From the NCBI GenBank assembly GCA_021650915.1, contig CP091279.1, positions 300,001-332,000 of the forward strand: 32,000 nt of DNA, given 5' to 3'. This document shows, in pieces, positions 14,920 through 32,000 of the stretch. This stretch comes from Candidatus Brocadia sp. GTDB lineage: Bacteria > Planctomycetota > Brocadiia > Brocadiales > Brocadiaceae. Each line of letters starts with the position of its first letter. The stretch's first letter is position 1. A model generated the notes under the pieces. The model did no database searches and was not told where the DNA came from. It was given only the letters and a program-made list of their open reading frames with translations. The position numbers and the translations under genes were made by a program.

Positions 14920-16044
14920 ATGATAAATACGAACAAAAATATTTTGATAAAACCAGGTGTTGCTAACCAGAATGACATACAAAATTACGATGCTTTTAGA
15001 ACCAGAGTCAACCTTGCAAACAGCGCTATTGAAAAAGGAAACTGGGATGAGGCATATCCTAATTTAAAAGCGGCGGTGGAGATGAATCCTAACTATGCCC
15101 AAGGGTACAATCATTTGGGGGTCTTTTTTACCAGAAATAAAAAATATGAAGAGGCAATTGATAAATTTAAAAAGGCCTTGCAGATCGATTTTTCGATGAC
15201 CGAAGTTCACTATAATCTTGCTTACCTGTATATGGAACGCGAGGAATATAGCACGGCGCTTCCCTATCTGAAGGAAGTTGTCCTGGCGAATTCTGACGAT
15301 TATGAGACCTATTACCTTATGGGCATATGCTGCAGCCGCAGCGACATGAAAAATGAAGCTGAAGCGTTTTTTTCGGAGGCCCATCGATTAAGACCAGAAC
15401 ACATACCATCAGCAATAAATCTTAGCAAGCTCTTGATTAAGAAAACCGATTATACAAAGGCGAAGAATATACTTCTCTATACCTACATGAATGATCCTTC
15501 GCTTCCTGAAGTAAATCTTCTCCTTGGAATTATTTACAAAATGCAAAAAAAACATACGAGAGCAATGCATTATCTGAGGGAAACATTGCTCAAAGATAAA
15601 AATAATGCCGAGGCTTACAACCTGCTTGGTGAATGTTGTGTGGAATCAGGTATGGATAAGCAGGCGGAAGCTTTCTTTTCCATGGCAGTGAAACTCGATA
15701 GCATGTATCGTGAGGCATTTTACAATCTTGGTAATCTTTATTACCGGCAGGAAAAATATGAGAATGCCATTTATGCCCTGGAGGAATATCTCAAAACCAA
15801 AGAGGCCGCTGATACCATCAATTCACTGTGGTCTGAAAATGCCCATACAGACGATAGTGATGTCGTATCGCTTTACAATTTGCTGGGATATTGTTTTCAA
15901 GCGAAGAAAAATCCAATTAAGGCGCGTACTCTATGGGAAAAATCATTAGCCATACAGCCTCTGCAGCAGGACATAAAAGATGAACTGTCAAGACTTCCCC
16001 AATCGCCACTCGGACAAAAAAGGATCAGCCTTCTGATCGATTAG
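14920..16044 (+). CDS. Tetratricopeptide (TPR) repeat protein, no catalytic domain recognisable
   Basis: Serial 34-residue TPR units (for example NPNYAQGYNHLGVFFTRNKKYEEAIDKFKKALQID, EVHYNLAYLYMEREEYSTALPYLKEVV, AEAYNLLGECCVESGMDKQAEAFFSMAVKLD, EAFYNLGNLYYRQEKYENAIYALEEYL). It starts 30 nt after csrA. Confidence 0.85.
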   Translation: MINTNKNILIKPGVANQNDIQNYDAFRTRVNLANSAIEKGNWDEAYPNLKAAVEMNPNYAQGYNHLGVFFTRNKKYEEAIDKFKKALQIDFSMTEVHYNLAYLYMEREEYSTALPYLKEVVLANSDDYETYYLMGICCSRSDMKNEAEAFFSEAHRLRPEHIPSAINLSKLLIKKTDYTKAKNILLYTYMNDPSLPEVNLLLGIIYKMQKKHTRAMHYLRETLLKDKNNAEAYNLLGECCVESGMDKQAEAFFSMAVKLDSMYREAFYNLGNLYYRQEKYENAIYALEEYLKTKEAADTINSLWSENAHTDDSDVVSLYNLLGYCFQAKKNPIKARTLWEKSLAIQPLQQDIKDELSRLPQSPLGQKRISLLID

Positions 16045-16348
16045 CTGTCCTTGTCATTAGTTCCTTTTCCATCCGGTTTTTATCAGGCGGCTGAATACGC
16101 ATGTATCGCTCAGGTTTACAATAAAGAAGCCTATCAATCAACTCGTTCTCCATTTCGTTTTACAGATATTTCGGTATTTATCTTTTATGCGATCTACTGA
16201 AAAATGTTTTCGCCTTTTATAAATATTTCACCATGGATGGTTAACTTCTCCAGCCGATTTTGCGGCTATCTGTTGCAATGGCTATCCTTAAATATTGCCA
16301 GAAAATAAACTCATTGTTTCAGGAAAAAGAACACGGAGTGCCAGTCTG

Positions 16349-17287
16349 ATGAGCTATAAAATTTTGGTTACGGGCGGTGCCGGCTACATAGGTTCAATTC
16401 TGGTTCCGGAATTATTAAAACAAGGGCATAAGGTAACCGTCCTGGATAACTTTATGTTTGGACAAAATTCGTTGCTCGAATGCTGTGCATATAACCATTT
16501 CGATGTTTTCAGGGGTGATGCAAGAGATGAAAGTATCTTAAAACCTCTTTTGCAAAAGCATGATTACATTATACCGCTGGCTGCGTTAGTAGGCGCTCCA
16601 CTTTGTAGCAGAGACAAGATAGGGACGGTAACAACGAGTAGAGATGCAGCTCTTTCCTTAGTAAAACTCGCATCTGCGGAACACAGAATAATTATACCAA
16701 CAACAAACAGTGGTTATGGTGTTGGCCAAAAAGGGGTGTACTGTACAGAGGAAACACCTTTGAAGCCGATTTCCTTGTACGGAATAGTAAAAGCGGAAGC
16801 AGAAAAGATCGTGCTTGATAGGGGGAACGCTATTAGTTTCAGGTTGGCTACGGTATTTGGAATGTCTCCAAGGATGCGCATTGATTTGCTGGTGAACGAT
16901 TTTACCTACCGGGCCGTGAATGACCGTTTTGTGGTAATATTTGAGGGTCATTTTAAGAGAAATTATATTCACATTCGTGATGTGGCAAGGGCTTTTCTTC
17001 ACGCAATAAACAACTTTGAGGGCATGAAAAATGAACCCTATAATGTGGGCATGTCAGATGCGAATCTTTCAAAGCTGGAACTGTGTGCGAAGATAAAAGA
17101 ATGTATTCCAGACTTCGTTTATTTAGAGTCGCCGGTTGGGGAAGACCCTGACAAAAGAGACTATGTCGTTTCCAACGAAAAAATTGAAAAGACCGGCTTT
17201 AAACCTCTTTATTCACTTGAGGCCGGGATAAAAGAACTTATTAAAGGATATAGAATAATTACAAACAGCAAATATGGCAATATTTAA
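16349..17287 (+). CDS. Extended-SDR NAD-dependent sugar epimerase/dehydratase
   Basis: Rossmann motif ILVTGGAGYIGS and catalytic YGIVKAEAE (YxxxK). About 310 aa. ATG 16349 is preferred (GGAG 10 nt upstream) over the ORF-track start 16295, because the glycine motif normally begins within ~10 residues of the N terminus. Confidence 0.85.
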   Translation: MSYKILVTGGAGYIGSILVPELLKQGHKVTVLDNFMFGQNSLLECCAYNHFDVFRGDARDESILKPLLQKHDYIIPLAALVGAPLCSRDKIGTVTTSRDAALSLVKLASAEHRIIIPTTNSGYGVGQKGVYCTEETPLKPISLYGIVKAEAEKIVLDRGNAISFRLATVFGMSPRMRIDLLVNDFTYRAVNDRFVVIFEGHFKRNYIHIRDVARAFLHAINNFEGMKNEPYNVGMSDANLSKLELCAKIKECIPDFVYLESPVGEDPDKRDYVVSNEKIEKTGFKPLYSLEAGIKELIKGYRIITNSKYGNI

Positions 17288-18080: not shown

Positions 18081-19163
18081 ATGATTATAAGCAGAACACC
18101 TTACCGTATCTCCTTTTTTGGCGGTGGGACCGATTACCCGGTGTGGTATGAAAAACATGGTGGGGCTGTGCTGGCTACAACCATTGATAAGTATTGCTAT
18201 CTTACCTGCAGATATTTTCCTCCTTTTTTTGAACACAAATTTCGTATTGTTTGGTCAAAGATTGAAAATTGTGCTGATGCTCAGAAAATTAACCATCCCG
18301 CTGTACGTGAAATCTTAAATTTCTTGAAGCTCGAACGTGGTATTGAGATACATCACGTGGGTGACCTGCCAGCCAGAAGCGGTATGGGTTCAAGTTCTTC
18401 CTTTACCGTCGGGTTACTCCATGCGCTCTATGCACTGAAAGGCTATATGCCCACCAAACATCAGTTAGCAACAGAAAGCATTTTCATTGAGCAAGAACTC
18501 CTGAAAGAAACCGTTGGTTCTCAGGACCAAGTACTCGCAGCCCATGGTGGCTTCAATCAGATTCTCTTTCTTAAAAACGGTGAAATATCCGTTCATCCGA
18601 TAGTATTGCCATCAGAACGGTTTGACGAACTTAATTCACATCTTATGCTGTTCTATACGGGTATGAAACGTACCGCCTCTGATGTCGCAAGCTCCTATGT
18701 GCATGGTATAGAAGAGCGCAAACGACAATTACGCGTCATGAAGGATATTGTGGAAGAGAGTATTTCTATTCTTAATAGTAGCCATGATATTACCGCTTTT
18801 GGAGAATTGATGCACGAATCGTGGCTGGTTAAGCGTAGTTTAAGTTCCAATGTATCTAATCCACATATCGATGGAATTTATGAAACAGCTATTGCTGCGG
18901 GTGCAATTGGTGGTAAGTTAACTGGGGCAGGCGGCGGAGGATTCTTGCTTCTCTTTACTCCTCCGGACAAACGCAAAGATGTAAAGGAGGTGTTGCATAA
19001 TTTAATCTATGTGCCCTTTAAATTTGATTTCTCCGGGAGTCAGATTATTTACCATAATTTTGAGGAAGATTATTCAGGAATTGAGAAAGAGCGGGATAAT
19101 CAATCTATTATCTTATCGCGAAAACTTGAAAGTTATAACTGCCAGACATTGCAAAAAGTTTAA
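18081..19163 (+). CDS. GHMP-family sugar kinase (HddA-like, heptose-7-phosphate-kinase type)
   Basis: N terminus MIISRTPYRISFFGGGTDYPVWY, typical of the HddA subgroup. GHMP ATP motif GDLPARSGMGSSSSFTVGLLHAL and C-terminal KLTGAGGGGFLLLF. AAGGAG Shine-Dalgarno. Confidence 0.8.
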   Translation: MIISRTPYRISFFGGGTDYPVWYEKHGGAVLATTIDKYCYLTCRYFPPFFEHKFRIVWSKIENCADAQKINHPAVREILNFLKLERGIEIHHVGDLPARSGMGSSSSFTVGLLHALYALKGYMPTKHQLATESIFIEQELLKETVGSQDQVLAAHGGFNQILFLKNGEISVHPIVLPSERFDELNSHLMLFYTGMKRTASDVASSYVHGIEERKRQLRVMKDIVEESISILNSSHDITAFGELMHESWLVKRSLSSNVSNPHIDGIYETAIAAGAIGGKLTGAGGGGFLLLFTPPDKRKDVKEVLHNLIYVPFKFDFSGSQIIYHNFEEDYSGIEKERDNQSIILSRKLESYNCQTLQKV

Positions 19164-19171
19164 TTTTATAC

Positions 19172-20059
19172 GTGAATTTCCCTATGCAAAAGAACCTCTA
19201 TAAAGAATTGTTGTATCAAAAAGATATTCAAATGCTTGAAAATAAAGCCAGAGGCATCAGAGCAACCTGTATTAAAATGGCTCATGACGGTAAAGAGGGG
19301 CATTTAAATGGAGCTTTAAGTTGCGTTGATTTACTGGTCGGGCTATATTACACCTGGCTTGATGTTACACCCAATGACTCGCATAGAAAAGACAGAGATC
19401 GTTTTATATTCAGCAAAGGACATGCATGTTCATCACTTTATGCTGTAATGGCTGATCGTGGCTTTTTCCCCAAACACTGGATCTCCAGCTATGCACAAAA
19501 TGATTCTCCCTTACCGAGTCATCCGTGTATTCACGCCCTCCCGATTCTCGAATGCTCTTCGGGAAGCCTGGGACACGGGCTTGGTATGGCTACAGGCATG
19601 AGTTACGGCTTGCGAATGGATGGAATACAAGCAAGGGTGGTGGTTCTTATCAGTGACGGAGAATGTAACGAGGGGAGTACCTGGGAAGCGGCTACTTTTG
19701 CCGTGGCAAATCGACTCGATAATCTGCTGCTCATCGTAGACAATAATGGGATTCAGTCGGTAGGCCGATCAGATAGCCTGATGGGTTTCACATCGCTGGA
19801 AGAAAAATACACTGCGTTTGGCTGGACTACCCGAATGATAAATGGAAACAACATCATAGAGATTGTTGAAACATTAAAGGAATTCCCTTTTGAAAAAGGG
19901 CGTCCGTCAGCAATTATTGCAAAAACAGTAGCGGGTGCTGGTGTAAGTTTTATGAAAAATCAGGTACTCTGGCATTATCGGGTGCCATCTGACGAAGACC
20001 TTAAAAAAGCTATGCAAGAGTTAAGCGAAGTTCCCATTTATACGGAGTCAAATGCTTGA
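19172..20059 (+). CDS. Transketolase, N-terminal (thiamine-diphosphate-binding) subunit
   Basis: GHLNGALSCVDLLVGLYY, FIFSKGHACSSLYAVMADRGFF, SSGSLGHGLGMATGM and the ThDP motif ISDGECNEGSTWEAATFAVANRLDNLLLIVDNNG. The start is either GTG 19172 or ATG 19184. Confidence 0.85.
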   Translation: MNFPMQKNLYKELLYQKDIQMLENKARGIRATCIKMAHDGKEGHLNGALSCVDLLVGLYYTWLDVTPNDSHRKDRDRFIFSKGHACSSLYAVMADRGFFPKHWISSYAQNDSPLPSHPCIHALPILECSSGSLGHGLGMATGMSYGLRMDGIQARVVVLISDGECNEGSTWEAATFAVANRLDNLLLIVDNNGIQSVGRSDSLMGFTSLEEKYTAFGWTTRMINGNNIIEIVETLKEFPFEKGRPSAIIAKTVAGAGVSFMKNQVLWHYRVPSDEDLKKAMQELSEVPIYTESNA

Positions 20060-20976
20060 GAAAAGCATTCGCAGATACACTTACACAGATTGCGGAACAG
20101 AATTCTCGTGTTGTTCTTGTTACCGGTGATCTCGGATTCCAGGTTTTTGATGAATTTCATGCAAGGTTTGGCCCACGCTACATAAATGTCGGTGTTGCTG
20201 AAGCACAAATGATTTACGCGGCAGCAGGGCTTGCAACAGTTGGCTGGCGGCCTGTAACTTACTCTATTGCCTCGTTTGCAACGGCTCGACCTTTTGAGCA
20301 AATTCGTTATTGTGTAAGCTACCCAAATTTACCGGTTGTTATCGTAGGAGCAGGCAGGGGATATCTTTATTCGACCAGCGGTGTTTCACACCATGCCGCT
20401 GATGACCTTGCGCTCATGTCAGTACTTCCTGGAATGACGGTAGTAGCCCCTGGAGACCCGGACGAAGTAGTACAACTTTTCCCTCAACTATTTAATTTAC
20501 CAGGGCCTTCATATTTCACCGTAGGCCGCTTTGGCGAGCCATCGTATGAAGCCTCTGAACCAGCAATTTTAGGACGTGCCAGGCTTCTTCGTAAAGGAGA
20601 GCAAATAGCCATTATTGGTACTGGTGAAATTGCCAACGAAATACTGAAGGCAATGAAACTTCTCGAACCGGACAAGATTTTTCCAACTGTCTATCAGATG
20701 CACACGGTAAAGCCCCTGGATATGAACACGTTGAATTCGTTGGCAAAAGAGGTGCACGCTATGGTGGTGGTAGAGGAGCATGTCCCTCATGGTGGACTAT
20801 GGGCCGCCATAAGCACATGGCATATAAGTACCGAAACGACTCCTCGAATGATTCGGCTTGGCCCCCCTGATAGTTTTGTCTTTGGAAATTTACGGCAAGA
20901 CGAACTTAGGCGCCGACTCAATTTTGACGCTAACGCGATAGCAAGCACTTGTCGCTCGTTGTGGAAAAAGAAATAA
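20056..20976 (+). CDS. Transketolase, C-terminal (pyrimidine-binding) subunit
   Basis: MRKAFADTLTQIAEQNSRVVLVTGDLG...INVGVAEAQMIYAAAGLA...SHHAADDLALMSVLPGMTVVAPGD. The TTG start overlaps the stop of the N-subunit gene (TTGA), implying translational coupling. Confidence 0.85.
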   Translation: MRKAFADTLTQIAEQNSRVVLVTGDLGFQVFDEFHARFGPRYINVGVAEAQMIYAAAGLATVGWRPVTYSIASFATARPFEQIRYCVSYPNLPVVIVGAGRGYLYSTSGVSHHAADDLALMSVLPGMTVVAPGDPDEVVQLFPQLFNLPGPSYFTVGRFGEPSYEASEPAILGRARLLRKGEQIAIIGTGEIANEILKAMKLLEPDKIFPTVYQMHTVKPLDMNTLNSLAKEVHAMVVVEEHVPHGGLWAAISTWHISTETTPRMIRLGPPDSFVFGNLRQDELRRRLNFDANAIASTCRSLWKKK

Positions 20977-21130
20977 AATTTTTGTAACACTTTAGCTTTT
21001 TGAAAAAATTCCAGTAATGATGCTCTTATCGCACGCGGTAGAGGCAATTCATGAATTACCTCTCCATGTTAACACAAAGGCATTTTCAGTCATTGGCTTT
21101 TTCAAAAAACTAAAGTGTTGCAAATTTTTT
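20977..21130. repeat. 154-bp nested imperfect palindrome filling the whole intergenic spacer (MITE-like or long RNA hairpin)
   Basis: The outer arms 20981-21007 and 21098-21124 pair over 27 positions: 25 Watson-Crick pairs, one T-G and one C-A. At the centre is GAGG-c-AATTCATGAATT-a-CCTC (21041-21062), which contains a perfect 12-bp palindrome. The element starts right after the TAA stop (20974-20976) and ends at the AAGGAG Shine-Dalgarno (21131). Confidence 0.6.
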
Positions 21131-21141
21131 AAGGAGACGCT

Positions 21142-22110
21142 ATGTATCGTAAGATTTTAGTAACAGGAGGCTCTGCTGTGACTGGCAGTGCCTTAAAATC
21201 CATAATCGGTGATTATTCGGAAAGTACGTTCTTTTTCATAAATTCAAAGGATTGTAATCTGGTCGATAGCAATAAAACCATTGCATACATAAGTGAATTA
21301 CAGCCGGATGCTATCATTCATCTGGCGGCAATTAGCGGTGGTATCGGTCTGAGTATGAAATATCCAGCAACCCTATTACGGGATAACGTGTTGATGAATT
21401 TTAACATTCTTGAGGCAGGTAGGCGATGCAACATAAAAAAGATTGTTATGACCCTTACTACGGGCATGTATCCGGAGAATGCACCGCTTCCCCTCAAAGA
21501 AGAGTACATCCACAACGGTCATCCACATGAATCGAACTATGGTTCTTCGTTTGCAAAAAGGCTGGTTGATCCCGCTGTGAAAGCGTACCGGGCCGAATAT
21601 GGTTTAAATATCATAGGCTTGGTGCCAAACGGAATATTTGGTGAAAACGATAACTTCAATTACGACGATGCACCCATGGTTCCAACGCTTATCAGACGCT
21701 TTTATGAAAACAGACATGGCAATTCAAAAATAGTTATCTGGGGTGATGGTACTCCCCTTCGGGAATATACTTATGCAAAGGATGTCGCCAGGGCTTTCAT
21801 GTGGTGCCTGAACCATTATAATGATGCACAAATATTGAATATTGGCACAACTGAGGAACTTTCTGTAAAGGAAATAGCATATCTTATCGCCGGCTTCTTG
21901 AATATTGATACCAGTCGTATTGAATTTGACACAACAAAATCAAATGGAATATTCAAAAAGAGCGTAGATAATTCCCGTTTTATCAGTATCTCAAAATTCC
22001 AGTATACATCTTTTAAGGCCGGTTTGGAAAACACTATAAGGTGGTTTTGTGATACCTATCAGAAATCTCCCGAAAGCATAAGAATGAAGGGCAAAAGCAG
22101 GATCAACTAA
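21142..22110 (+). CDS. GDP-L-fucose-synthase-like (GMER/Fcl family) NDP-4-keto-sugar epimerase/reductase
   Basis: ILVTGGSAVTGSAL, DAIIHLAAISGGI, VPNGIFGENDNF and IVIWGDGTPLREYTYAKDVARAF follow the Fcl/WcaG pattern (xPxNxYGxxDNF and WGxGxPxREF). About 320 aa. AAGGAG Shine-Dalgarno. Confidence 0.75.
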   Translation: MYRKILVTGGSAVTGSALKSIIGDYSESTFFFINSKDCNLVDSNKTIAYISELQPDAIIHLAAISGGIGLSMKYPATLLRDNVLMNFNILEAGRRCNIKKIVMTLTTGMYPENAPLPLKEEYIHNGHPHESNYGSSFAKRLVDPAVKAYRAEYGLNIIGLVPNGIFGENDNFNYDDAPMVPTLIRRFYENRHGNSKIVIWGDGTPLREYTYAKDVARAFMWCLNHYNDAQILNIGTTEELSVKEIAYLIAGFLNIDTSRIEFDTTKSNGIFKKSVDNSRFISISKFQYTSFKAGLENTIRWFCDTYQKSPESIRMKGKSRIN

Positions 22111-25440: not shown

Positions 25441-28400
25441 ATGTCTGTGTCTGTTAAAAACCGTGCCAGCCTGAGAGTTTTATATATTCCTTTAGAGTTT
25501 AAAACGTGGCAAAATGCAAGCCACCTTCCTTACTCTGGGAATTATGGTTTTGAAGAAGGGTTCACTGCTAACGGGATGGAATATCTGACGATTCCAGCCT
25601 TTTATGAAACGACATCTTCCGAACAGATATCATGGCTGAACCATGCACGTGAGCTTTGTGCAGGAAAAAATTTTGATCATGTTTGGCTTGAGATCGTTCA
25701 TAGTAGATTTGATGAAAGTTTTCTGGACTGGATTGCGACAATAGCTCCGGTTCGCATTGGCTTTGTCTGGGAAAGCTGTGAAATGCACCCTGACGAAATT
25801 GTAAATAATCCCGAAGGTGTCAAAAGACGACAAGCTAATCTCGAAAGGAATTTTAAATTTGTAACGCATGTCGTTGCTATTGACGAAAAAGATGTGGAAA
25901 ATTTTAACACCCATAACTTGGTAAAAACCAAATGGTTATGGGATGCCGGAATAATGCCTGAACGTTTCATCTGCAAGGAACTTCCGTCAACGCCCGCGCC
26001 CAATAATTGTGCAGTTTTTTATGGGTCTCTCTATGGTGAAAGGAAAAAATGGCTGGAACATAGCGCCTTGAAGGGTTTACTGGTCCGCCCGGTGGCTTCT
26101 CCAGAATATAGCACCAATCTGCCTGGTCTTTTTGATAAATTGAATGCTACTTCTGATGCATTTTTAAAAGAAGAGCAGGCCTCTACCGAAGAGTTCTTTT
26201 CTACTTATATAGACTCTTTGCGTGTCATTCGCAGGGAATGCTTTGCCCTTTGGCTGAGTGGACTGAGTATGGGGGTTGCGATTGTGAATTTACCGCAATT
26301 TGGTAAGGGTTATGCAAGCCGTGTACTTGAAGGGATGGCCGCGGGACGTCCGGTTATAAGCTATGAAATCCCAGACCGGCCAAGAACCAAAGCTCTCTTT
26401 GAGGATGGGAAAGAAATTTTGTTGTACAAAGGAGATGATCCTTATCAGTTGGCGGAACATATACAACGGATTTTGCGTGAGCCGGACTTTGCCAGGAGGA
26501 TCTCAGCGAATGCCAGAAGCAAAATAATGAGTTTTCATACCACGGAAAGATTGGTTAGCCAGATACTTGACTGGGTTGAAAATCGGGAAATAAATTCTTC
26601 TTTAATGGCTCATCCTTTACAAGGTAATCAAACACAGCCTGGCAACAAGATGCTGTTGACGCGAAATTTTTATGGTCCGGGAGATATCGTATTTGATGTT
26701 GGAGCAAATGTCGGCGACAAGACTCATATGTTTTTAGAGAGTGGCGCAAAGGTAATATGTTTTGAACCTCAATCTGATTGCACAACGATATTGCAGAAGA
26801 AGTACGGCAATGACAAAAGAGTAGTAATTGTTGAAAAAGGCTTGGCTGATAAAAATGGAAAAAGGCTACTTTCTGTATGCTCACAGGCTAACACAATCTC
26901 CACTTTTTCAGATGACTGGAAAAAGGGAAGATTTGCTGACTATACATGGGATAAATCTGACGTGGTAGAAGTTATTACTCTTGATGATGCTATTCATACT
27001 TATGGATTCCCTCAATACGTCAAGATTGATGTAGAAGGATTTGAATATCAGGTTCTGTGTGGTTTATCTAAACCAGTTCCATATTTATCATTTGAATTTA
27101 CAATTGAATTTCTTGATCGTGCAAAGCAGTGCATGTCTCATTTGGAGAGACTCGGTTACGAATTCTTTAATTTTTCCGAAAAAGAAATACCTCAACTGGT
27201 TCTTTCCGAATGGGTTTCCTCAAAAACTCTTTTTAAAAAATTGGAACGTTTGACAGATCAGTTATATTGGGGTGACATTTACGCAAAGTACGATACGTTA
27301 TCTCCGAATAATAAAAAAAATTTTACTCATGAAATTAAACACATTCTTCCTGATAAATCAGCAGTAGCAGCAAATATAAGAAATACGATTTCAACTGTTA
27401 ATACCAATATTCTCAAACAACTCTATATTACAGGTCTTTGGGGTGACAATCAGCCGCTTCGCCTTCACCTTGGTTGCGGAGAACAGCGCCTCGATGGCTA
27501 TGTAAATATTGATTATCCACCAAGCGAGCATAATGTCATGCAGGTGAAAGCGGATGTTTATGCGAACATTATGGAATTAGATTTTCCTGCAGGGTCTGTA
27601 GACGAGATCAGGTCGCACCATGTCTTTGAGCACTTTAATCGTGTTACAGCCCTGGCGATGCTTATCAAATGGCACCATTGGCTAAAGGTCGGCGGAAAAC
27701 TGCATATTGAGACGCCTGATCTCGTTGGTAGTGCAAAGACGTTGTTGGGCGATTACTCCTGGAAGACAAAAATGGGGGCAGTTCGGCATATAGCCGGGGA
27801 TCAGTCTTCCGGTTGGTCATATCATATTGATCACTGGTTTCCCGAAAGATTTGAACACACTTTGAATAATCTGGGATTTCGGCCTGTACAAACCCAGTCA
27901 ACATCCTGGCCACACGATCCATTTTTGTCAAACGTTACCGCTATTGCTGTAAAATCGCACAATGTCTCTTTGTCAGAGCAGGTAAAGGCCGCTGATGAAT
28001 TGTTGTGGGAAAGTACTGTTGCATCCACTGAGCAACCAACCTATGAAGTCTGGAAGCAACAGCTTCGTTCTCTTTTGTCAGACAAATCCGAAATGGCATC
28101 ACAGGTGCCTTTGGGTTCTCAGTTAGAACAGGTCGCTCACGTCTTTCAGCAATCCAAGTCAGAGCAATCAATTCAGGAAATACACGACTTTAACCAGAGA
28201 GAGCGCGACAGATGGGTTCAACTGAAGGCGGTGACCGTGCCTGCAGGTTCACGAGTGTTAGATATCGGTGCGGGAACGTGTCCCTATCGTGCGCTATTTG
28301 CGCATGGTGATTACAAAACGCATGATTTCAAACGATACACGGGTGAGAAGCTTGGTGGAACAACGGAATACGGCAAGATTGATTATGAATCGGATATTTG

Positions 28401-29049
28401 CGCTATACCCGTACCGGACAACTCCTTTGACGTAATCGTCTGCACTGAAGTCCTGGAACATACTCCGGAACCAATCGAAGCGCTCCGGGAGATGTCGAGG
28501 ATCTTAAAGGAGGGCGGCAGACTGTTCCTGACCGCTCCGCTTGGGTCCGGACTGCATCAACTGCCGTATCACTATTATGGCGGGTTCACGCCGGAATGGT
28601 ACAAGCATTTTTGCAGTAAATTCGGTTTATATGTCTCCGAAATCTCACCAAACGGGGGGTTTTTCAAACTGCTTGCTCAGGAATGTGCACGTGTGGCCTG
28701 GACATTGCCTCAACACCAGCATCTGCATGGGAATAACGTGGAGTTGATCAAAAACCTGTTCGGTGAATGGATACCTCGCTATTTATTTGAGCTGGAAAAG
28801 AAACACGGTATTGACCAGTTCACCGTCGGCTATCACGTAGAAGCTGTGAAAGTCAGAGATATCGATACCGTTCAGAAATTGATTGAAAACGATCTCCAAA
28901 ATGTGAATCTCTATCTTGAAGCCGCACGATCTCTGTTGAATCAAGGTGAGTATTTACCTGCAAGAAGGTATGTAGAAGACGCATTGGAACTCAACCATAG
29001 CAATACCACGCTTATTGAGATGCATCAACAATTGGTGAATAAGCCATGA
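25441..29049 (+). CDS. 1202-aa fusion: GT-B-like glycosyltransferase + FkbM-type methyltransferase + two class I SAM methyltransferase domains + TPR-like tail
   Basis: The GT1-type C-lobe is ASRVLEGMAAGRPVISYEIPDRPRTKALFEDGKEILLY (~26320-26440). The FkbM domain is GDIVFDVGANVGDKTH...VKIDVEGFEYQVL (~26660-27200). The second methyltransferase is LRLHLGCGEQRLDGYVNIDY...HVFEHF...LKVGGKLHIETPD (~27457-27950). The third is RVLDIGAGTCPY...FDVIVCTEVLEHTPEPIEALREMSRILKEGGRLFLTAP (~28200-28700). The tail is LYLEAARSLLNQGEYLPARRYVEDALELN. AAGGAG Shine-Dalgarno. Single uninterrupted ORF. Confidence 0.75.
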   Translation: MSVSVKNRASLRVLYIPLEFKTWQNASHLPYSGNYGFEEGFTANGMEYLTIPAFYETTSSEQISWLNHARELCAGKNFDHVWLEIVHSRFDESFLDWIATIAPVRIGFVWESCEMHPDEIVNNPEGVKRRQANLERNFKFVTHVVAIDEKDVENFNTHNLVKTKWLWDAGIMPERFICKELPSTPAPNNCAVFYGSLYGERKKWLEHSALKGLLVRPVASPEYSTNLPGLFDKLNATSDAFLKEEQASTEEFFSTYIDSLRVIRRECFALWLSGLSMGVAIVNLPQFGKGYASRVLEGMAAGRPVISYEIPDRPRTKALFEDGKEILLYKGDDPYQLAEHIQRILREPDFARRISANARSKIMSFHTTERLVSQILDWVENREINSSLMAHPLQGNQTQPGNKMLLTRNFYGPGDIVFDVGANVGDKTHMFLESGAKVICFEPQSDCTTILQKKYGNDKRVVIVEKGLADKNGKRLLSVCSQANTISTFSDDWKKGRFADYTWDKSDVVEVITLDDAIHTYGFPQYVKIDVEGFEYQVLCGLSKPVPYLSFEFTIEFLDRAKQCMSHLERLGYEFFNFSEKEIPQLVLSEWVSSKTLFKKLERLTDQLYWGDIYAKYDTLSPNNKKNFTHEIKHILPDKSAVAANIRNTISTVNTNILKQLYITGLWGDNQPLRLHLGCGEQRLDGYVNIDYPPSEHNVMQVKADVYANIMELDFPAGSVDEIRSHHVFEHFNRVTALAMLIKWHHWLKVGGKLHIETPDLVGSAKTLLGDYSWKTKMGAVRHIAGDQSSGWSYHIDHWFPERFEHTLNNLGFRPVQTQSTSWPHDPFLSNVTAIAVKSHNVSLSEQVKAADELLWESTVASTEQPTYEVWKQQLRSLLSDKSEMASQVPLGSQLEQVAHVFQQSKSEQSIQEIHDFNQRERDRWVQLKAVTVPAGSRVLDIGAGTCPYRALFAHGDYKTHDFKRYTGEKLGGTTEYGKIDYESDICAIPVPDNSFDVIVCTEVLEHTPEPIEALREMSRILKEGGRLFLTAPLGSGLHQLPYHYYGGFTPEWYKHFCSKFGLYVSEISPNGGFFKLLAQECARVAWTLPQHQHLHGNNVELIKNLFGEWIPRYLFELEKKHGIDQFTVGYHVEAVKVRDIDTVQKLIENDLQNVNLYLEAARSLLNQGEYLPARRYVEDALELNHSNTTLIEMHQQLVNKP

Positions 29050-32000
29050 AGACAAAGTTACTGTATGTTGGAATGCAATATGATTACGGCGATAAAACGA
29101 GAGGTTTTTCGTTTGAACACCGGAATTTTTACCATCCACTCAAGAGCTATTGCAAGAAGCACGATTGGGATTTTATACACTTCGATTTTATGGAGCAGGG
29201 ACTCAACGATGGTCTGGACGTGATGACACAGGGTCTCTATGAATTGGCAAAAAAAGAAATACCCGCCATTTTATTCGCCGTATTATTCGATTTTCACCGT
29301 GATCCACGATATGAGGTATTTAGGCAAATAGCATCATTAGGCACGACAACCATTCACTGGTTTTGTGACGATCACTGGCGGTTTGAGAAGTACAGCTCCG
29401 TAGTTGCCCCCCATTTTGACATCATTTGTACAACGGCGAATGACTCCCTCCCAAAGTATCACGCTATGGGAATATCCCCTAAAGTCATAAAAACTCAGTG
29501 GGCATGCAACCATGAATTGTATATTCCTTACGACATCCAAAAAGATGTAGAGATCAGTTTTGTAGGACAACCTCATGGTAATCGTGTAGAAGCATTAGCA
29601 AAATTACTGCAAAACGGATTCAAGCTGGAGGTCTTTGGTTTTGGATGGGAAAACCGGCCACGCATCCCTTTTCATCAAATGGTAAGGCTGTTTTCACGGA
29701 GTAAAATTAATCTCAATTTATCAAATTCATCAACGTTAATCGGGCAGCAGATTAAGGGAAGAAATTTTGAGATTCCGGGAACAAGAAGTTTTCAATTATC
29801 CAGCAATGCTGACAATCTCTCTGAGTACTACGAAGCGGGAAAAGAGATCATAATATTCAATTCAGTGGATGAATTAATTGAAAAGGCTACATACTACTTT
29901 AAACATGACGATGAAAGAAACGAGATAGCAAATAACGGGTACCAGCGAACCATGGCTGAACATACCTGGCAACATCGTTTTGAAAAAATATTCAATGCTA
30001 TCACTGCAAGGCAGCATAACCCAGGCATACCCGTGAAACATGTTTCTCGCTCGGATAGCATCGGGAAACAGATGGACGCACGGCAGGTGGCTGAGCCACT
30101 GGTCTCGGTAATAATTCCCTGTTACAACCAGTCAAATTATTTGTCAGAGGCAGTTGAAAGTGTGGTTCATCAAGGCTATAAGAACTGGGAGTGCATTATT
30201 GTTAATGATGGCAGCCCGGACGATGCAGCCTGCGTTGCTGAATTGTTGATTCAGAAATATCCGGACAAACGAATCCGGCTCGTGAATCAGGTGAACCAGG
30301 GCTTGTCCTCTGCGCGGAACGCAGGAATCAAGGCAGCAAACGGTGAATATATCCTTCCCCTTGATGCGGATGATCTCATCCATCAGGACATGTTGCAAAA
30401 GACAGTATCCTTATTAGCATCTCATCCGGAGATAGCAATTGCCTATACGGATGTAAGGCATTTTGGCGGTGCGGAACGAATTGTCTGTGCAGGAGAATAT
30501 GATTTTAAACGATTATGTTTTCAAAATCATCTCAATTGTTGCTCACTGTACCGGCGTAAAGCCTGGGAGGCTGCAGGGGGGTATAATCCCAACATGACGT
30601 GGGGGTACGAGGACTGGGATTTCTGGATATCCTGCGGAGAAAAAGGATATTATGGAAAGAGAATACCTGAGCCATTGTTTCTCTATCGGGTGAAAGAGAC
30701 CAGTATGTATACAAAGGCCATTGAACATCATCGTGAGTTAATGGCTCAAATTATTGTCAACCACCCAAACCTTTATGACCCGAAATCCCTTTCAGAGGCA
30801 AAAAGAATATTGGCTCCAGGGTGTACGGTTCCATTAAAAACCAAGCCCCTTGTTTCTGTTGTTGTGCCAACATATAACAGGCCAGACACCCTGAAAACTA
30901 CCTTGGAAAGCATCGCTTCGCAGACGTACAAACATATCGAGGCAGTTGTGGTGAACGACGCAGGAGAAGACGTATCAACGGTTGTCGATCTTTTTCGTGA
31001 CCGGTTGCGTATTCAATATCTTGTTCACCCTGAGAATAAAGGGCTTGCAGCAGCAAGGAATACCGCTATCAGGCATGCTTCGGGTGAATATATTGCTTAC
31101 CTCGATGACGACGATATGTTTTATCAGGATCATATAGAAACCCTGGTAACGTATCTGGAAACGAGCGGTGATAAAGTAGCCTATACGGATGCATACCGCG
31201 TATGTCAGGAAAAAGAAGGCGGAAGGTATGCCATAAAACAAAAAGACGTTCCGTACTCCTTTGATTTCGATGCAGACCTCATTCTGGCACAAAACCTCTT
31301 TCCTGTCCTCTGCGTTATGCATCGAAAATCATGTCTGGATGAAGTAGGGCTTTTTGATGAGTCGCTCACCACCCATGAAGACTGGGATTTGTGGATTCGC
31401 ATATCCAGAAACTATCATTTTACCCATATAAAAAAGATCACCGGTGAGTTTACATGGAGGACAGATAGCGCCAGCATGTCGGGTGCAAGGCAAGCTGATT
31501 TTCTGAGGACAATGGGCATTATCTATGAAAAATACAAGAGCTATTTGCGAGACAAACAGCGGATTTTAGATTTGCAAACTGCATGGATTCAGCATCTTCA
31601 AAAGGTATCTATCATCATACCCGTTTTTAACAAGGTTGAATTCACCAAAAAATGCTGTGAGGCCTTGGTCAAAAATACACCACGAGGCCTGTACGAACTT
31701 ATTATTGTTGATAACGCATCAACAGATGATACCAGCGCTTTCCTGAAGGGGCTAAAAGGTGATGTTAAAATAATAACAAACGAAAAGAACCTGGGTTTTT
31801 CCAGGGCATGTAATCAGGGGGCACGGCTGGCCGCCACCAATTACCTCCTGTTCTTAAACAATGATACCGAACCGATGAAAGGGTGGTTGGAACCGCTCCT
31901 GCATATTCTTACCCAGGATAGCTCTGCAGGCGCTGTGGGCAGTAAACTTTTATTTCCGGACGGCACCATCCAGCATGCCGGGGTGGTAATTATCGATGAT
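29046..32000 (+). CDS. Multi-glycosyltransferase fusion (CgeB-like GT-B + three GT2 domains), 3' end beyond the window
   Basis: This gene is absent from the ORF track because it has no stop in the window. I translated the frame and found it open from ATG 29046 (ATGA overlap with the upstream stop) to nt 32000, giving 985 codons. The CgeB/Glyco_trans_1_2-like part is SKINLNLSNSS...IKGRNFEIPGTRSFQLS...NNGYQRTMAEHTW (~29046-30010). GT2 domain 1 is VSVIIPCYNQSNYL...NDGSPDD...LDADD (~30098-30720). GT2 domain 2 is VSVVVPTYNRPDTL...VNDAGED...LDDDD (~30849-31500). GT2 domain 3 is VSIIIPVFNKVEF...VDNASTDDT...FLNNDT (~31605 onward). Confidence 0.8.
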   Translation, partial: MKTKLLYVGMQYDYGDKTRGFSFEHRNFYHPLKSYCKKHDWDFIHFDFMEQGLNDGLDVMTQGLYELAKKEIPAILFAVLFDFHRDPRYEVFRQIASLGTTTIHWFCDDHWRFEKYSSVVAPHFDIICTTANDSLPKYHAMGISPKVIKTQWACNHELYIPYDIQKDVEISFVGQPHGNRVEALAKLLQNGFKLEVFGFGWENRPRIPFHQMVRLFSRSKINLNLSNSSTLIGQQIKGRNFEIPGTRSFQLSSNADNLSEYYEAGKEIIIFNSVDELIEKATYYFKHDDERNEIANNGYQRTMAEHTWQHRFEKIFNAITARQHNPGIPVKHVSRSDSIGKQMDARQVAEPLVSVIIPCYNQSNYLSEAVESVVHQGYKNWECIIVNDGSPDDAACVAELLIQKYPDKRIRLVNQVNQGLSSARNAGIKAANGEYILPLDADDLIHQDMLQKTVSLLASHPEIAIAYTDVRHFGGAERIVCAGEYDFKRLCFQNHLNCCSLYRRKAWEAAGGYNPNMTWGYEDWDFWISCGEKGYYGKRIPEPLFLYRVKETSMYTKAIEHHRELMAQIIVNHPNLYDPKSLSEAKRILAPGCTVPLKTKPLVSVVVPTYNRPDTLKTTLESIASQTYKHIEAVVVNDAGEDVSTVVDLFRDRLRIQYLVHPENKGLAAARNTAIRHASGEYIAYLDDDDMFYQDHIETLVTYLETSGDKVAYTDAYRVCQEKEGGRYAIKQKDVPYSFDFDADLILAQNLFPVLCVMHRKSCLDEVGLFDESLTTHEDWDLWIRISRNYHFTHIKKITGEFTWRTDSASMSGARQADFLRTMGIIYEKYKSYLRDKQRILDLQTAWIQHLQKVSIIIPVFNKVEFTKKCCEALVKNTPRGLYELIIVDNASTDDTSAFLKGLKGDVKIITNEKNLGFSRACNQGARLAATNYLLFLNNDTEPMKGWLEPLLHILTQDSSAGAVGSKLLFPDGTIQHAGVVIIDD

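What the first reader, a model, noticed from the sequence alone, without database searches (positions are those of the whole stretch)
14920..32000. A >16-kb co-directional glycan biosynthesis and methylation island attached to the flagellar late genes
From the TPR gene onward, 14 consecutive + strand genes encode sugar activation, tailoring, at least five methyltransferase domains and at least five glycosyltransferase domains. No convincing terminator separates them from fliW-csrA, and there is no Wzx/Wzy/Wzz, ABC exporter or lipid-carrier priming enzyme in the window. Position and content suggest a protein glycosylation system, with flagellin the obvious candidate, producing a heavily O-methylated oligosaccharide. 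The alternative is a surface-layer or LPS glycan. From memory, the S-layer protein of the anammox bacterium Kuenenia stuttgartiensis carries O-glycans modified by methylation. That would be relevant only if this window comes from such an organism, which I cannot verify.
Basis: inference. Interest (0 to 1): 0.65.

Follow-up and report, generated by a model that had tools for sequence, protein, structure and literature searches.

The report
Flagellum-linked heptose protein-glycosylation island in Brocadia
In an anammox bacterium, the flagellar late genes are followed by a 19-kb set of soluble enzymes that appear to make a modified seven-carbon sugar, attach it to a protein (most likely flagellin) and methylate it; this is a known kind of system with unusual chemistry and unusually large enzymes.

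Summary
There are 13 co-directional genes, not 14, running from 14920 to about 33719, which is 1.7 kb past the window end. They carry 4 well-supported methyltransferase domains plus 1 weak one, and 6 glycosyltransferase-like domains, 5 of them inside the window. No + strand terminator follows csrA. There is no flippase, ABC exporter, priming transferase or oligosaccharyltransferase, also in the flanks seen beyond the window. No island protein has a membrane segment.

The organism is an anammox Brocadia, 99.7% identical in DNA to MAG UTAMX2, not Kuenenia.

The sugar module is a GDP-heptose pathway. The best solved relatives are HddA, HddC, a Cj1427-type C4-dehydrogenase (about 59% identity), GDP-4-keto-heptose 3,5-epimerases and an Fcl-like reductase. 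A non-canonical split transketolase and an aldo-keto reductase have no assigned role.

In all 18 Brocadiaceae species loci that reach past csrA, flgK-flgL-fliW-csrA-TPR is followed by variable sugar genes. Related islands in a Nitrospira and a Geobacteraceae contig lie next to flagellin genes.

Flagellin glycosylation is therefore the best reading (about 0.6), but it is inferred. No flagellin gene lies within 10 kb of the cluster. The HddC-like gene is one that published work links to S-layer heptose glycans.

The parts
10935..13852 (+). flgK (10935-12896) and flgL (12941-13852), the hook-filament junction genes. They are context, not part of the island.
   Evidence: Pfam FlgK_D1. NCBIfam TIGR02550 FlgL scores 233.6 bits against a cut-off of 127.2. 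So 12941-13852 is FlgL, not flagellin.
14125..14889 (+). fliW (14125-14589) and csrA (14617-14889), the flagellin-sensing translational control pair, immediately upstream of the island.
   Evidence: Pfam FliW E=3.8e-33 and CsrA E=1.9e-26. The gap to the next gene is 30 nt, with no terminator.
14920..16044 (+). 374-aa soluble TPR protein, the conserved first gene of the island. Candidate substrate-binding or adaptor protein (inferred).
   Evidence: TPR families at E down to 3e-39. No signal peptide or membrane segment. Present right after csrA, at 57-80% identity, in all 18 Brocadiaceae species loci that reach that far.
16349..17287 (+). SDR1, a Cj1427-type GDP-heptose C4-dehydrogenase homologue. 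An alternative TTG start lies at 16295.
   Evidence: Full-length match to PDB 6VO6/6VO8, E=3.5e-113, about 59% identity. That 6VO6 is Cj1427 rests on my memory of Huddleston et al. 2020. The function of Cj1427 is taken from PMC10680097.
17339..18070 (+). HddC-like sugar-1-phosphate guanylyltransferase.
   Evidence: The best solved relatives are 5XHW/6JQ8, '6-deoxy-D-mannoheptose pathway protein'. NCBIfam HddC scores 150 bits, below the 300 cut-off. Relatives at 55-59% identity are named HddC by JGI. Its 90% cluster holds OQZ02626.1 and a B. sinica JPN1 protein.
18081..19163 (+). HddA-like GHMP kinase (heptose-7-phosphate 1-kinase type).
   Evidence: The best solved relatives are 3K85, 4USK/4USM and 4N3O, which are heptose phosphate kinases. 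NCBIfam HddA scores 145 bits, below the 600 cut-off.
19184..20976 (+). Split ThDP enzyme of the transketolase type: N subunit 19184-20059 and C subunit 20056-20976, overlapping by 4 nt. Its role is open.
   Evidence: Pfam Transketolase_N, Transket_pyr and Transketolase_C. About 25% identity to E. coli TktA. Cofactor and catalytic residues are kept (His26, His66, His100, Asp155, Asn185, His261, Glu411, His473). The substrate-site residues Ser385, His461 and Asp469 are not aligned to like residues (the alignment is low-identity, so this is tentative).
21142..22110 (+). SDR2, a GDP-L-fucose-synthase-like enzyme, proposed as the C4-ketoreductase.
   Evidence: PDB GDP-L-fucose synthases score 247 bits. 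NCBIfam Fcl scores 194.8 bits, below the cut-off.
22138..23109 (+). Aldo-keto reductase with no assigned step.
   Evidence: Pfam Aldo_ket_red E=4.5e-57. It travels with the cassette in L010, L024 and L104.
23113..23880 (+). TylF-type sugar O-methyltransferase. Other gene calls start at 23224.
   Evidence: Pfam TylF E=3.5e-9, above the cut-off. 91-92% identical copies occur in L010 and L024.
23918..24880 (+). 320-aa protein, a candidate fifth methyltransferase.
   Evidence: It has a motif-I-like stretch, 'IYEFGCGPATH'. Methyltransf_25 E=0.014, below the cut-off. hhalign to the island's MT_11 profile gives 66% probability, E=5e-5. No significant solved relative.
24891..25400 (+). RmlC-fold 3,5-epimerase of the GDP-4-keto-heptose type.
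   Evidence: The top solved relatives are GDP-D-glycero-4-keto-D-lyxo-heptose 3,5- and 3-epimerases (8DCO, 8DB5, 7M14, 8DCL), E about 4e-36. They rank ahead of dTDP RmlC enzymes.
25441..29049 (+). 1202-aa soluble megaenzyme. It has an N-terminal GT-B-type domain (PF13524), an FkbM methyltransferase, a middle class-I methyltransferase and a C-terminal Methyltransf_11 domain.
   Evidence: It is 53-60% identical to the fusion protein of the Geobacteraceae island that flanks flagellin. The exact protein is found on 12 public anammox contigs.
29046..32000 (+). The first 985 aa of a 1557-aa soluble megaenzyme, made of a GT-B-type domain (PF13524), four GT2 domains and a C-terminal TPR array. The gene ends about 33719, outside the window.
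   Evidence: The whole protein was read from L001, which is 100% identical to the window where they overlap. GT2 total E=5.7e-126 over 4 stretches, with TPR at aa 1400-1540. The TPR part aligns with SPINDLY/OGT TPRs, and one GT2 domain aligns with polypeptide GalNAc-transferases.

Best explanation
This is a flagellum-linked protein O-glycosylation island of an anammox Brocadia that works without a lipid carrier or an oligosaccharyltransferase.

Shown by homology:
- A kinase/guanylyltransferase pair of the HddA/HddC type activates a heptose as its GDP derivative.
- A Cj1427-type dehydrogenase oxidises C4.
- An RmlC-fold enzyme epimerises C3 and/or C5.
- An Fcl-like reductase closes the sequence.
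- The product would be a GDP-heptose stereoisomer, as in the Campylobacter jejuni capsule pathway.

Inferred:
- GmhA and GmhB activities come from the LPS heptose genes elsewhere in the genome.
- The split ThDP enzyme either supplies sedoheptulose 7-phosphate or adds a two-carbon branch to the 4-keto intermediate. In the second case the aldo-keto reductase would reduce the branch.
- Two soluble megaenzymes build and O-methylate a short oligosaccharide directly on Ser/Thr of a cytoplasmic substrate. One carries a GT-B-type domain plus 3 methyltransferases. The other carries a GT-B-type domain, 4 GT2 domains and TPR repeats. TylF and a candidate methyltransferase also take part.
- The TPR array of the giant enzyme and the separate TPR protein select the substrate.
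- That substrate is most likely flagellin, modified before export through the flagellar secretion apparatus.
- The middle of the island is swapped between species, which diversifies the filament surface.
For: Position:
- The island lies on the same strand, 30 nt after csrA, with no terminator.
- flgK-flgL-fliW-csrA-TPR followed by sugar, GT and MT genes occurs in all 18 Brocadiaceae species loci that reach past csrA. Those genes vary: sulfotransferase, aminotransferase, NeuB, radical SAM, GT9 and pyruvyltransferase.
- The giant GT closes the island in the window's own species (L001, L006), in L012, L017 and Brocadia WS118, and in two further Brocadiaceae contigs whose 5' ends were not seen (L010, L011). 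In WS118 the loci L023 and L009 are contiguous, giving an island of about 24 kb.

Cross-phylum evidence:
- Nitrospira L035 reads SDR1 (64% identity), GHMP (54%), NTP, TK-N, TK-C, GT/MT fusion, GT9, GT-B, GT9, one unnamed ORF, flagellin, flaG, fliD, fliS.
- Geobacteraceae L034 has an RmlC-like gene (68%), TylF, a GT/MT fusion (53-60%), a multi-GT2/TPR protein (41%) and a second multi-GT2 protein (29%), the last of which abuts flaF, flbT and flagellin.
- Among 80 metagenome loci found with a profile of the GT/MT fusion, flagellar late genes occur in 16 overall and in 12 of the 38 loci of at least 12 kb. My rough estimate for random 20-kb windows is a few percent. The count is a lower bound, because islands often exceed the 10-kb flank.

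Mode of action:
- No island protein has a membrane segment or signal peptide, whereas FlgH, FlgI and FlgA do.
- No priming transferase, flippase, ABC exporter, polymerase or oligosaccharyltransferase was found in or around the island.
- Flagellin glycosylation is cytoplasmic, sequential and oligosaccharyltransferase-independent, and FlmG uses a TPR domain to bind flagellin (PMC7591256).

Sugar chemistry: with PMC10680097.
Against: - No flagellin gene lies within about 10 kb upstream of fliK or 10 kb downstream of the island. I could not locate the organism's flagellin.
- Glycosylated flagellin has not been reported in the anammox glycoproteomics papers I read. The only glycoprotein found in Kuenenia and Brocadia cultures is the S-layer protein. 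It carries heptose oligomers and methylated sugars, which is what this island could make.
- About two thirds of the longer metagenome loci show no flagellar gene in view.
- The HddA and HddC assignments fall below NCBIfam equivalog cut-offs.
- GmhA and GmhB are absent from the island.
- Co-transcription with csrA is inferred only from spacing. Gaps of 304 nt (16045-16348) and 165 nt (20977-21141) could hold promoters.
Confidence: 0.6

Rival explanations
1. The island glycosylates the S-layer protein, or both the S-layer protein and flagellin. Its GDP-heptose feeds the 'O-type' oligoheptose glycans. The soluble TPR-bearing transferases add one to a few heptoses in the cytoplasm before Sec export, as autotransporter heptosyltransferases do.
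For: - Kuenenia S-layer protein carries oligoheptose chains, and a second glycan with methylated HexNAc and a 174-Da 'dimethyl-deoxyhexose'. GDP-heptose was detected in those cells.
- Pabst et al. list HddC homologues only in Kuenenia, B. sinica and UTAMX2 (OQZ02626.1), and a Kuenenia-type S-layer homologue only in B. sinica.
- OQZ02626.1 and a B. sinica JPN1 protein fall in the same 90% cluster as the window's nucleotidyltransferase.
- The island makes a GDP-heptose derivative.
Against: - The island keeps its place after csrA across Brocadiaceae, whatever its sugar chemistry.
- In Nitrospira and Geobacteraceae, related islands abut flagellin genes, not S-layer genes.
- The published co-occurrence rests on two or three genomes.
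- The S-layer heptoses were reported unmethylated, whereas this island carries 4-5 methyltransferase domains.
- The S-layer peptide LGTQATSALPLIALTK is not encoded in the loci held at that point (L001-L009), which include the 10 kb downstream of the island.
Confidence: 0.17
2. The island builds a lipid-linked polysaccharide: an O-antigen, an exopolysaccharide, or an S-layer glycan of the ABC-transporter-dependent type. The multi-domain GT/MT proteins would act as polymerase and methyl-capping terminator, as WbdA/WbdD or WsaE do. The priming, export and ligation genes would lie elsewhere.
For: - Fusions of several GT domains with methyltransferase domains and repeat or coiled-coil modules are typical of ABC-transporter-dependent O-polysaccharide and Geobacillus S-layer glycan synthesis (my own knowledge of WbdD and WsaE).
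- The C. jejuni enzymes most like the sugar module serve a capsule.
- Most metagenome loci with the fusion protein show no flagellar gene in view.
Against: - No Wzm/Wzt, Wzx, Wzy, WecA/WbaP-type or ligase/oligosaccharyltransferase gene occurs in the window or its flanks, or in any of the comparison islands I annotated.
- No protein has a membrane segment.
- Flagellar linkage is conserved within the family and recurs across phyla.
Confidence: 0.1

Closest known systems
Flagellin glycosylation islands of Pseudomonas (P. aeruginosa a-type orfA-orfN; P. syringae fgt1/fgt2 with vio genes), recalled from memory
   Same: - They sit at the flgK-flgL end of the flagellar late genes.
- They combine nucleotide-sugar synthesis genes with soluble glycosyltransferases.
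- Their content varies between strains.
- The P. syringae glycan carries an O-methylated sugar.
- No lipid carrier, flippase or oligosaccharyltransferase is involved.
   Different: - Here the flagellin gene is not adjacent.
- The sugar is a heptose derivative rather than rhamnose or viosamine.
- The transferases are 1202- and 1557-aa multi-domain proteins with TPR repeats.
- No sequence comparison with the Pseudomonas proteins was possible with these tools.
FlmG of Caulobacter crescentus (TPR plus GT flagellin O-glycosyltransferase; PMC7591256)
   Same: - A TPR array is fused to a glycosyltransferase in a soluble cytoplasmic protein.
- In FlmG the TPR part binds flagellin and sets specificity.
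- FlaF and FlbT, partners in that system, flank the homologous Geobacteraceae island.
   Different: - FlmG is 596 aa, with N-terminal TPR and one GT-B domain, and transfers pseudaminic acid.
- Here the TPR array is C-terminal to one GT-B-type domain and four GT2 domains, and the donor is probably a GDP-heptose.
- Homology of the catalytic parts was not tested.
GDP-heptose modification pathway of the Campylobacter jejuni capsule (HddC, GmhA, HddA, Cj1427, Cj1430, Cj1428; PMC10680097)
   Same: - The same enzyme types occur, and four island enzymes (kinase, guanylyltransferase, C4-dehydrogenase, epimerase) have heptose-pathway enzymes as their best solved relatives. The reductase matches C. jejuni reductases only weakly, and its best relative is human GDP-fucose synthase.
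- GmhB lies outside the cluster in C. jejuni too.
   Different: - The C. jejuni pathway feeds a lipid-anchored capsule exported by an ABC transporter.
- It has GmhA in the cluster, and no transketolase or aldo-keto reductase.
- Here there is no GmhA, and the context is flagellar.
Autotransporter heptosyltransferases (AAH/TibC) and the GDP-heptose S-layer glycan of Aneurinibacillus thermoaerophilus (my own knowledge; the latter is cited)
   Same: - Heptose is attached to protein.
- The autotransporter enzymes act in the cytoplasm on Ser/Thr before Sec export.
[quoted passage not shown]
   Different: - The autotransporter enzymes use ADP-heptose and belong to another family.
- The A. thermoaerophilus glycan is assembled on a lipid carrier.
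- Neither system is linked to flagellar genes.

Membership tests
Flagellin glycosylation island (cytoplasmic, oligosaccharyltransferase-independent) | Physical linkage to flagellar filament or late genes, conserved in relatives | tested here: met
   The island starts 30 nt after csrA. The same junction is present in all 18 Brocadiaceae species loci that reach past csrA. Homologous islands abut flagellin in Nitrospira and Geobacteraceae. Flagellar late genes occur in 12 of 38 long metagenome loci.
Flagellin glycosylation island (cytoplasmic, oligosaccharyltransferase-independent) | Soluble glycosyltransferases; no priming transferase, flippase, exporter or oligosaccharyltransferase | tested here: met
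   Domain scans, flanking genes and a hydropathy scan with flagellar signal-peptide proteins as positive controls.
Flagellin glycosylation island (cytoplasmic, oligosaccharyltransferase-independent) | Content varies between strains and species while the flanks stay fixed | tested here: met
   The TPR gene is kept after csrA in all 18 loci, and a giant GT closes the island wherever its 3' end was seen (L012, L017, WS118, the window's species). The middle ranges from one 506-aa methyltransferase protein (L012) to about 20 kb of different sugar genes.
Flagellin glycosylation island (cytoplasmic, oligosaccharyltransferase-independent) | Flagellin carries the glycan, and loss of the island affects the filament or motility | not testable with these tools
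   This needs glycoproteomics or genetics. No anammox flagellin glycopeptide is reported in the papers I read.
Flagellin glycosylation island (cytoplasmic, oligosaccharyltransferase-independent) | Flagellin gene adjacent to the island (usual but not obligatory) | tested here: not met
   The only flagellin-fold gene nearby is FlgL. No flagellin gene was seen in the roughly 8 kb upstream of fliK or the 10 kb downstream of the island.
GDP-heptose synthesis and modification pathway (C. jejuni type) | Cj1427-type GDP-heptose C4-dehydrogenase | tested here: met
   Full-length alignment to 6VO6, E=3.5e-113, about 59% identity.
GDP-heptose synthesis and modification pathway (C. jejuni type) | GDP-4-keto-heptose C3/C5 epimerase and a C4 reductase | tested here: met
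   The epimerase's best relatives are the GDP-4-keto-heptose epimerases. The reductase is Fcl-like and also matches C. jejuni 'GDP-L-fucose synthase' entries 7ANH, 7CXT and 7M13 over its N-terminal half. The stereochemical outcome is unknown.
GDP-heptose synthesis and modification pathway (C. jejuni type) | HddA kinase and HddC guanylyltransferase | tested here: inconclusive
   The best solved relatives are HddA/WcbL and HddC. NCBIfam scores are far below the equivalog cut-offs, at 145 against 600 and 150 against 300.
GDP-heptose synthesis and modification pathway (C. jejuni type) | GmhA isomerase and GmhB phosphatase available | tested here: not met
   Neither is in the island or its flanks. 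GmhB lies outside the cluster in C. jejuni as well. The Kuenenia literature says ADP-heptose genes exist in anammox genomes, but I did not check this genome.
Lipid-linked O-antigen, capsule or S-layer glycan cluster (Wzx/Wzy or ABC-transporter type) | Initiating phosphoglycosyltransferase, flippase or ABC exporter, and polymerase, ligase or oligosaccharyltransferase in the cluster | tested here: not met
   None was found in the window, in L001, L002 or L006 downstream, or in the comparison islands.
FlmG-type TPR-glycosyltransferase | TPR array fused to a glycosyltransferase domain in one soluble protein | tested here: met
   TPR at aa 1400-1540 of the 1557-aa protein, which is soluble.
FlmG-type TPR-glycosyltransferase | Catalytic domain homologous to FlmG, and a TPR domain that binds flagellin | not tested
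Binding needs experiments.

The most novel reading that the evidence does not exclude
[quoted passage not shown] The 'O-type' S-layer glycans of anammox bacteria would then be made without a lipid carrier or oligosaccharyltransferase, by a system that evolved for flagellin. A second unexcluded element is that the non-canonical split ThDP enzyme and the aldo-keto reductase add and reduce a two-carbon branch on the GDP-4-keto-heptose, giving a branched nine-carbon sugar.
Probability: 0.15. Interest if true: 0.75.

Novelty: new variant of a known kind. Interest (0 to 1): 0.5.

Why it matters
Anammox bacteria are key organisms of the nitrogen cycle and of wastewater treatment. Their surface chemistry affects whether they aggregate or swim freely.

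So far only the S-layer glycans have been described for them, and no biosynthetic genes have been assigned. This locus offers three things:
- A concrete gene set for GDP-heptose in the Brocadia sinica group.
- A prediction that flagellin carries a methylated heptose glycan.
- A direct test of whether the published link between HddC and S-layer heptoses is right.

The same building blocks recur beside flagellin genes in Nitrospira and Geobacteraceae. These blocks are the GHMP kinase, nucleotidyltransferase and split ThDP enzyme cassette, the GT/MT fusion, and the multi-GT2/TPR giant. The island type is therefore probably a widespread, undescribed class of flagellin-modifying system in environmental bacteria. 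Soluble multi-domain protein glycosyltransferases of this kind are also of interest for glyco-engineering.

Tried and rejected
- S-layer gene next to the island: rejected. The two large minus-strand proteins downstream in L006 do not contain the Kustd1514 glycopeptide LGTQATSALPLIALTK, and neither does any of the nine loci held then, L001-L009.
- Kuenenia as the source: rejected. The window is 99.7% identical to Brocadia sp. UTAMX2 DNA and about 81-85% identical to other Brocadia species over the flagellar genes. FliW is 73-85% identical to named Brocadia species, against 55-67% in the more distant Brocadiaceae MAGs.
- 12941-13852 as flagellin: rejected. It is FlgL.
- Flagellin next to the cluster: none upstream or downstream. 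A look-up with fliK found nothing because of a start-codon mismatch. I had no way to search the rest of the genome.
- Regulatory signals: a sigma-28-type pattern gave one hit, upstream of flgI, at chance level. Sigma-70 and terminator scans were at chance level. There were no Rfam families or tRNAs.
- Canonical housekeeping transketolase: doubtful, because substrate-site residues are not conserved. The alignment is only 25% identical, so this is not settled.
- Literature searches for a described transketolase, GHMP kinase and nucleotidyltransferase cassette in flagellin glycosylation found nothing relevant.
- Mapping the island onto the Kuenenia CSTR1 proteome table failed, because the organism differs and the stored table is truncated.

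Full report
**What is in the window.**
- The first 14.9 kb is a flagellar gene block on the + strand. It reads fliK, flgD, flgE, flgF, flgG, flgA, flgH, flgI, a flgJ-like gene, flgN, flgK, flgL, fliW and csrA.
- The 303-aa protein with flagellin-type domains at 12941-13852 is FlgL. TIGR02550 scores 233.6 bits against a cut-off of 127.2. The window therefore holds no flagellin gene.
- Thirty bases after csrA, at 14920, a run of 13 + strand genes begins, not 14.
- These are: a 374-aa TPR protein; an SDR (SDR1); a nucleotidyltransferase; a GHMP kinase; the N and C halves of a transketolase-type enzyme; a second SDR (SDR2); an aldo-keto reductase; a TylF methyltransferase; a 320-aa protein with no Pfam hit; an RmlC-like epimerase; a 1202-aa protein; and a protein that runs off the window end.
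- The last gene was read whole from L001, a public contig 100% identical to the window over 16.6 kb. It encodes 1557 aa and ends about 1.7 kb past the window.

- The 1202-aa protein holds four domains. They are a GT-B-type domain (PF13524), an FkbM methyltransferase, a middle class-I methyltransferase and a Methyltransf_11 domain. The middle domain has a 'LHLGCG' motif and scores 22.3 bits on Methyltransf_11 against a cut-off of 21.2.
- With TylF that makes four supported methyltransferase domains.
- The 320-aa protein is a weak fifth. It has the motif 'IYEFGCGPATH', Methyltransf_25 E=0.014 and hhalign 66% probability.
- The 1557-aa protein holds a GT-B-type domain, four GT2 domains and a C-terminal TPR array.
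- That gives six GT-like domains in all. Five lie in the window, the third GT2 only in part.
- No + strand intergenic terminator was found, and the number of terminator-like sites was at chance level.
- Intergenic gaps are 3-51 nt or overlaps, except for 304 nt after the TPR gene and 165 nt after the transketolase.

**The ends of the island.**
- In L006, which is 99.7% identical, the giant GT is followed by a small ORF, a KsgA-type rRNA methylase and two large minus-strand proteins with no Pfam hits.
- In another strain, L002, it is followed by DUF4258 and PIN genes.
- Upstream of fliK lie two small unknown genes and then unrelated metabolic genes.
- Nowhere is there a flippase, ABC exporter, chain-length regulator, priming phosphoglycosyltransferase, polymerase or oligosaccharyltransferase.
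- None of the 13 proteins has a hydrophobic stretch of membrane-helix strength. FlgH, FlgI and FlgA in the same window show their signal peptides clearly.

**The organism.**
- The exact proteins occur on anammox reactor contigs.
- The giant GT is 100% identical to a protein of GCA_002050315.1, and window DNA is 99.7% identical to that assembly.
- The nucleotidyltransferase shares a 90% cluster with OQZ02626.1 (Brocadia sp. UTAMX2) and with a B. sinica JPN1 protein.
- OQZ02626.1 and the giant GT share the same longest-contig length (77,569 bp). This is why I equate that assembly with UTAMX2.
- FliW is 73-85% identical to named Brocadia species, and 55-67% identical in the more distant Brocadiaceae MAGs.
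- The window is therefore from a Brocadia of the sinica/UTAMX2 group, not from Kuenenia.

**What the sugar genes make.** The closest solved structures point to heptose chemistry.
- SDR1 aligns end to end, at about 59% identity and E=3.5e-113, with 6VO6/6VO8. [quoted passage not shown]
- The epimerase's best relatives are GDP-4-keto-heptose 3,5- and 3-epimerases, ranked ahead of dTDP RmlC enzymes.
- The kinase's best relatives are heptose phosphate kinases: 3K85, WcbL 4USK and 4N3O.
- The nucleotidyltransferase's best relatives are HddC entries 5XHW/6JQ8.
- SDR2 is a GDP-fucose-synthase-like reductase.
- This is the logic of the C. jejuni capsule pathway: GDP-heptose, C4 oxidation, C3/C5 epimerisation, C4 reduction (PMC10680097).
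- GmhA and GmhB are not in the island. In C. jejuni, GmhB is also encoded elsewhere.
- The HddA and HddC assignments are below NCBIfam equivalog cut-offs, so they are family-level calls.

**The unexplained enzymes.** The split ThDP enzyme and the aldo-keto reductase have no counterpart in the C. jejuni scheme.
- One reading is supply of sedoheptulose 7-phosphate.
- Two observations argue for something else.
- First, in an alignment with E. coli TktA at about 25% identity, the cofactor and catalytic residues are kept. Ser385, His461 and Asp469 of the sugar-phosphate site are not aligned to like residues.
- Second, in Brocadia WS118 the Cj1427-like gene is followed directly by an E1-type alpha/beta ThDP pair. 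Such an enzyme cannot make sedoheptulose phosphate.
- ThDP enzymes that add two-carbon branches to 4-keto sugars are known from yersiniose and avilamycin biosynthesis (from memory).
- A branch-forming role, with the aldo-keto reductase reducing the branch, is therefore possible. I leave this open.

**Linkage to the flagellum in relatives.**
- A scan of one genome per species returned 19 Brocadiaceae loci.
- Eighteen extend past csrA, and all 18 read flgK-flgL-fliW-csrA-TPR followed by sugar, GT and MT genes.
- The content of the middle differs widely:
  - L024/L025 carry the same cassette as here, at 77-92% identity.
  - L012 has only a 506-aa methyltransferase protein before the giant GT.
  - B. 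sapporoensis (L014) has one ORF of more than 2586 aa, fusing pyruvyltransferase, FkbM, GT9, TPR, GT2 and GT1 domains.
  - L018 has a sulfotransferase, a GT2, an aminotransferase and methyltransferases.
  - A Wunengus MAG (L029) has radical SAM, NeuB, a cytidylyltransferase and GT2s.
- In Brocadia WS118 the loci L023 and L009 are contiguous, and the island runs about 24 kb from csrA to the giant GT.
- Fixed flanks with a swapped middle are what flagellin glycosylation islands look like in Pseudomonas, Campylobacter and Clostridium (my own knowledge).

**Linkage in other phyla.**
- In a Nitrospira contig, homologues of SDR1 (64%), the kinase (54%), the nucleotidyltransferase and both ThDP subunits head the island. 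Two B12-radical-SAM genes and a GT/MT fusion follow. Next come a GT9, a GT-B-type protein and a second GT9. The GT9 family is the heptosyltransferase family.
- After one unnamed ORF, that island runs into flagellin-flaG-fliD-fliS.
- In a Geobacteraceae contig, an RmlC homologue (68%), TylF, a GT/MT fusion (53-60%), a multi-GT2/TPR protein (41% over nearly its full length) and a second multi-GT2 protein occur. The last of these abuts flaF, flbT and flagellin.
- A profile of the GT/MT fusion retrieved 80 metagenome loci.
- Flagellar late genes (fliD, fliS, flagellin, flaG, flgK, flgL, fliW, csrA, flaF, flbT) occur in 16 of them, and in 12 of the 38 loci of at least 12 kb.
- This is a lower bound. 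In the window itself the fusion gene lies more than 10 kb from csrA, so a 10-kb flank would miss the link.
- My rough expectation for random 20-kb windows is a few percent.

**How it most likely works.**
- Flagellins are glycosylated in the cytoplasm by soluble transferases that add sugars one at a time from nucleotide donors, without an oligosaccharyltransferase. FlmG uses a TPR domain to bind flagellin (PMC7591256).
- The island fits that mode. It has a donor-sugar module, methyltransferases, two soluble multi-domain transferases and two TPR modules, and no lipid-carrier machinery.
- I therefore rate flagellin glycosylation with a methylated heptose-containing oligosaccharide as the best explanation, at about 0.6.
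- The chemistry is assigned by homology. The target and the order of steps are inferred.

**The main rival.**
- In Kuenenia the S-layer protein is the only glycoprotein reported. It carries oligoheptose chains, and a HexNAc glycan with methyl groups and a 174-Da unit. GDP-heptose was detected.
- Pabst et al. list HddC homologues only in Kuenenia, B. sinica and UTAMX2, and relate them to the heptose glycans.
- The UTAMX2 entry, and a B. sinica JPN1 protein that probably corresponds to the paper's B. sinica entry, belong to the same 90% cluster as the window's gene.
- In this lineage, therefore, the 'S-layer' HddC sits in the flagellar-locus island.
- Either the GDP-heptose is made for flagellin and the published link is coincidental, or the pool (and perhaps the transferases) also serve the S-layer protein.
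- Cytoplasmic heptosylation before Sec export has a precedent in autotransporter heptosyltransferases (my own knowledge).
- I give this rival about 0.17, and a lipid-linked polysaccharide with export genes elsewhere about 0.1.

**Novelty and verdict.**
- I found no description of a flagellin glycosylation island in anammox bacteria or Planctomycetota.
- I also found no description of the kinase, nucleotidyltransferase and split-ThDP cassette in this role.
- The kind of system is known. The sugar chemistry, the giant GT/MT/TPR enzymes and the overlap with the S-layer heptose story make it a new variant.
- Interest is moderate, at 0.5.

Noticed in passing
window 19184-20976: In a 25%-identity alignment with E. 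coli TktA, the split transketolase keeps the cofactor and catalytic residues. It lacks like residues at Ser385, His461 and Asp469 of the sugar-phosphate site. It may not be an ordinary transketolase.
   Followed up: partly
L023 13282-15059 (Brocadia sp. WS118): At the equivalent place in this relative's island, an E1-type alpha/beta ThDP enzyme pair follows the Cj1427-like dehydrogenase. A B12-radical SAM protein, a DJ-1/PfpI protein and a 576-aa SDR come next. This hints at C-branching or other unusual tailoring of a 4-keto-heptose.
   Followed up: partly
L014 12708-20465 (B. sapporoensis): A single open reading frame of more than 2586 aa runs off the locus end. It fuses pyruvyltransferase, FkbM methyltransferase, GT9, TPR, GT2 and GT1 domains directly after the TPR gene.
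   Followed up: partly
L006 17360-24559 (downstream of the island, outside the window): Two large minus-strand proteins (1332 aa, and at least 1056 aa by ORF or 1776 aa by the database gene call) have no Pfam hits and no obvious signal peptide. Another strain (L002) has DUF4258/PIN toxin-type genes at this position instead, so the downstream junction varies between strains.
   Followed up: no
window 1-640 and 778-2694: Three near-identical public contigs (L031-L033) align with the window only from position 640 onward. Their fliK is called with three different starts (448, 598 and 638 aa). The stretch upstream of fliK, including the 155-aa ORF at 122-589 with no family hit, may differ between strains.
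   Followed up: no
window 16045-16348 and 20977-21141: These are the only two long non-coding gaps inside the island (304 and 165 nt). They could hold internal promoters. The simple sigma-70 scan gave nothing above chance there.
   Followed up: partly
window 8717-8742: One sigma-28-like motif (TAAA-N16-CCGATAA) lies just upstream of flgI. A single match is what chance gives (0.82 expected).
   Followed up: yes
Kuenenia CSTR1 proteome table (PMC7709395 supplement; not in the window): In Kuenenia, a 'putative mannose-1-phosphate guanylyltransferase' (kuste2568) and a WcaL-like glycosyltransferase (kuste2609) have no MBR1 orthologue listed. Their locus-tag numbers are about 40-80 above that of a flagellar FliL gene (kuste2526). 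This may be a strain-variable glyco region near flagellar genes in Kuenenia too.
   Followed up: no
L116 (Desulfatitalea tepidiphila, a named species in NCBI): A 1928-aa multi-GT2 relative of the giant GT closes a cluster holding two NeuB genes, a CMP-sugar synthetase, a formyltransferase and several methyltransferases. No flagellar gene lies within 10 kb.
   Followed up: no
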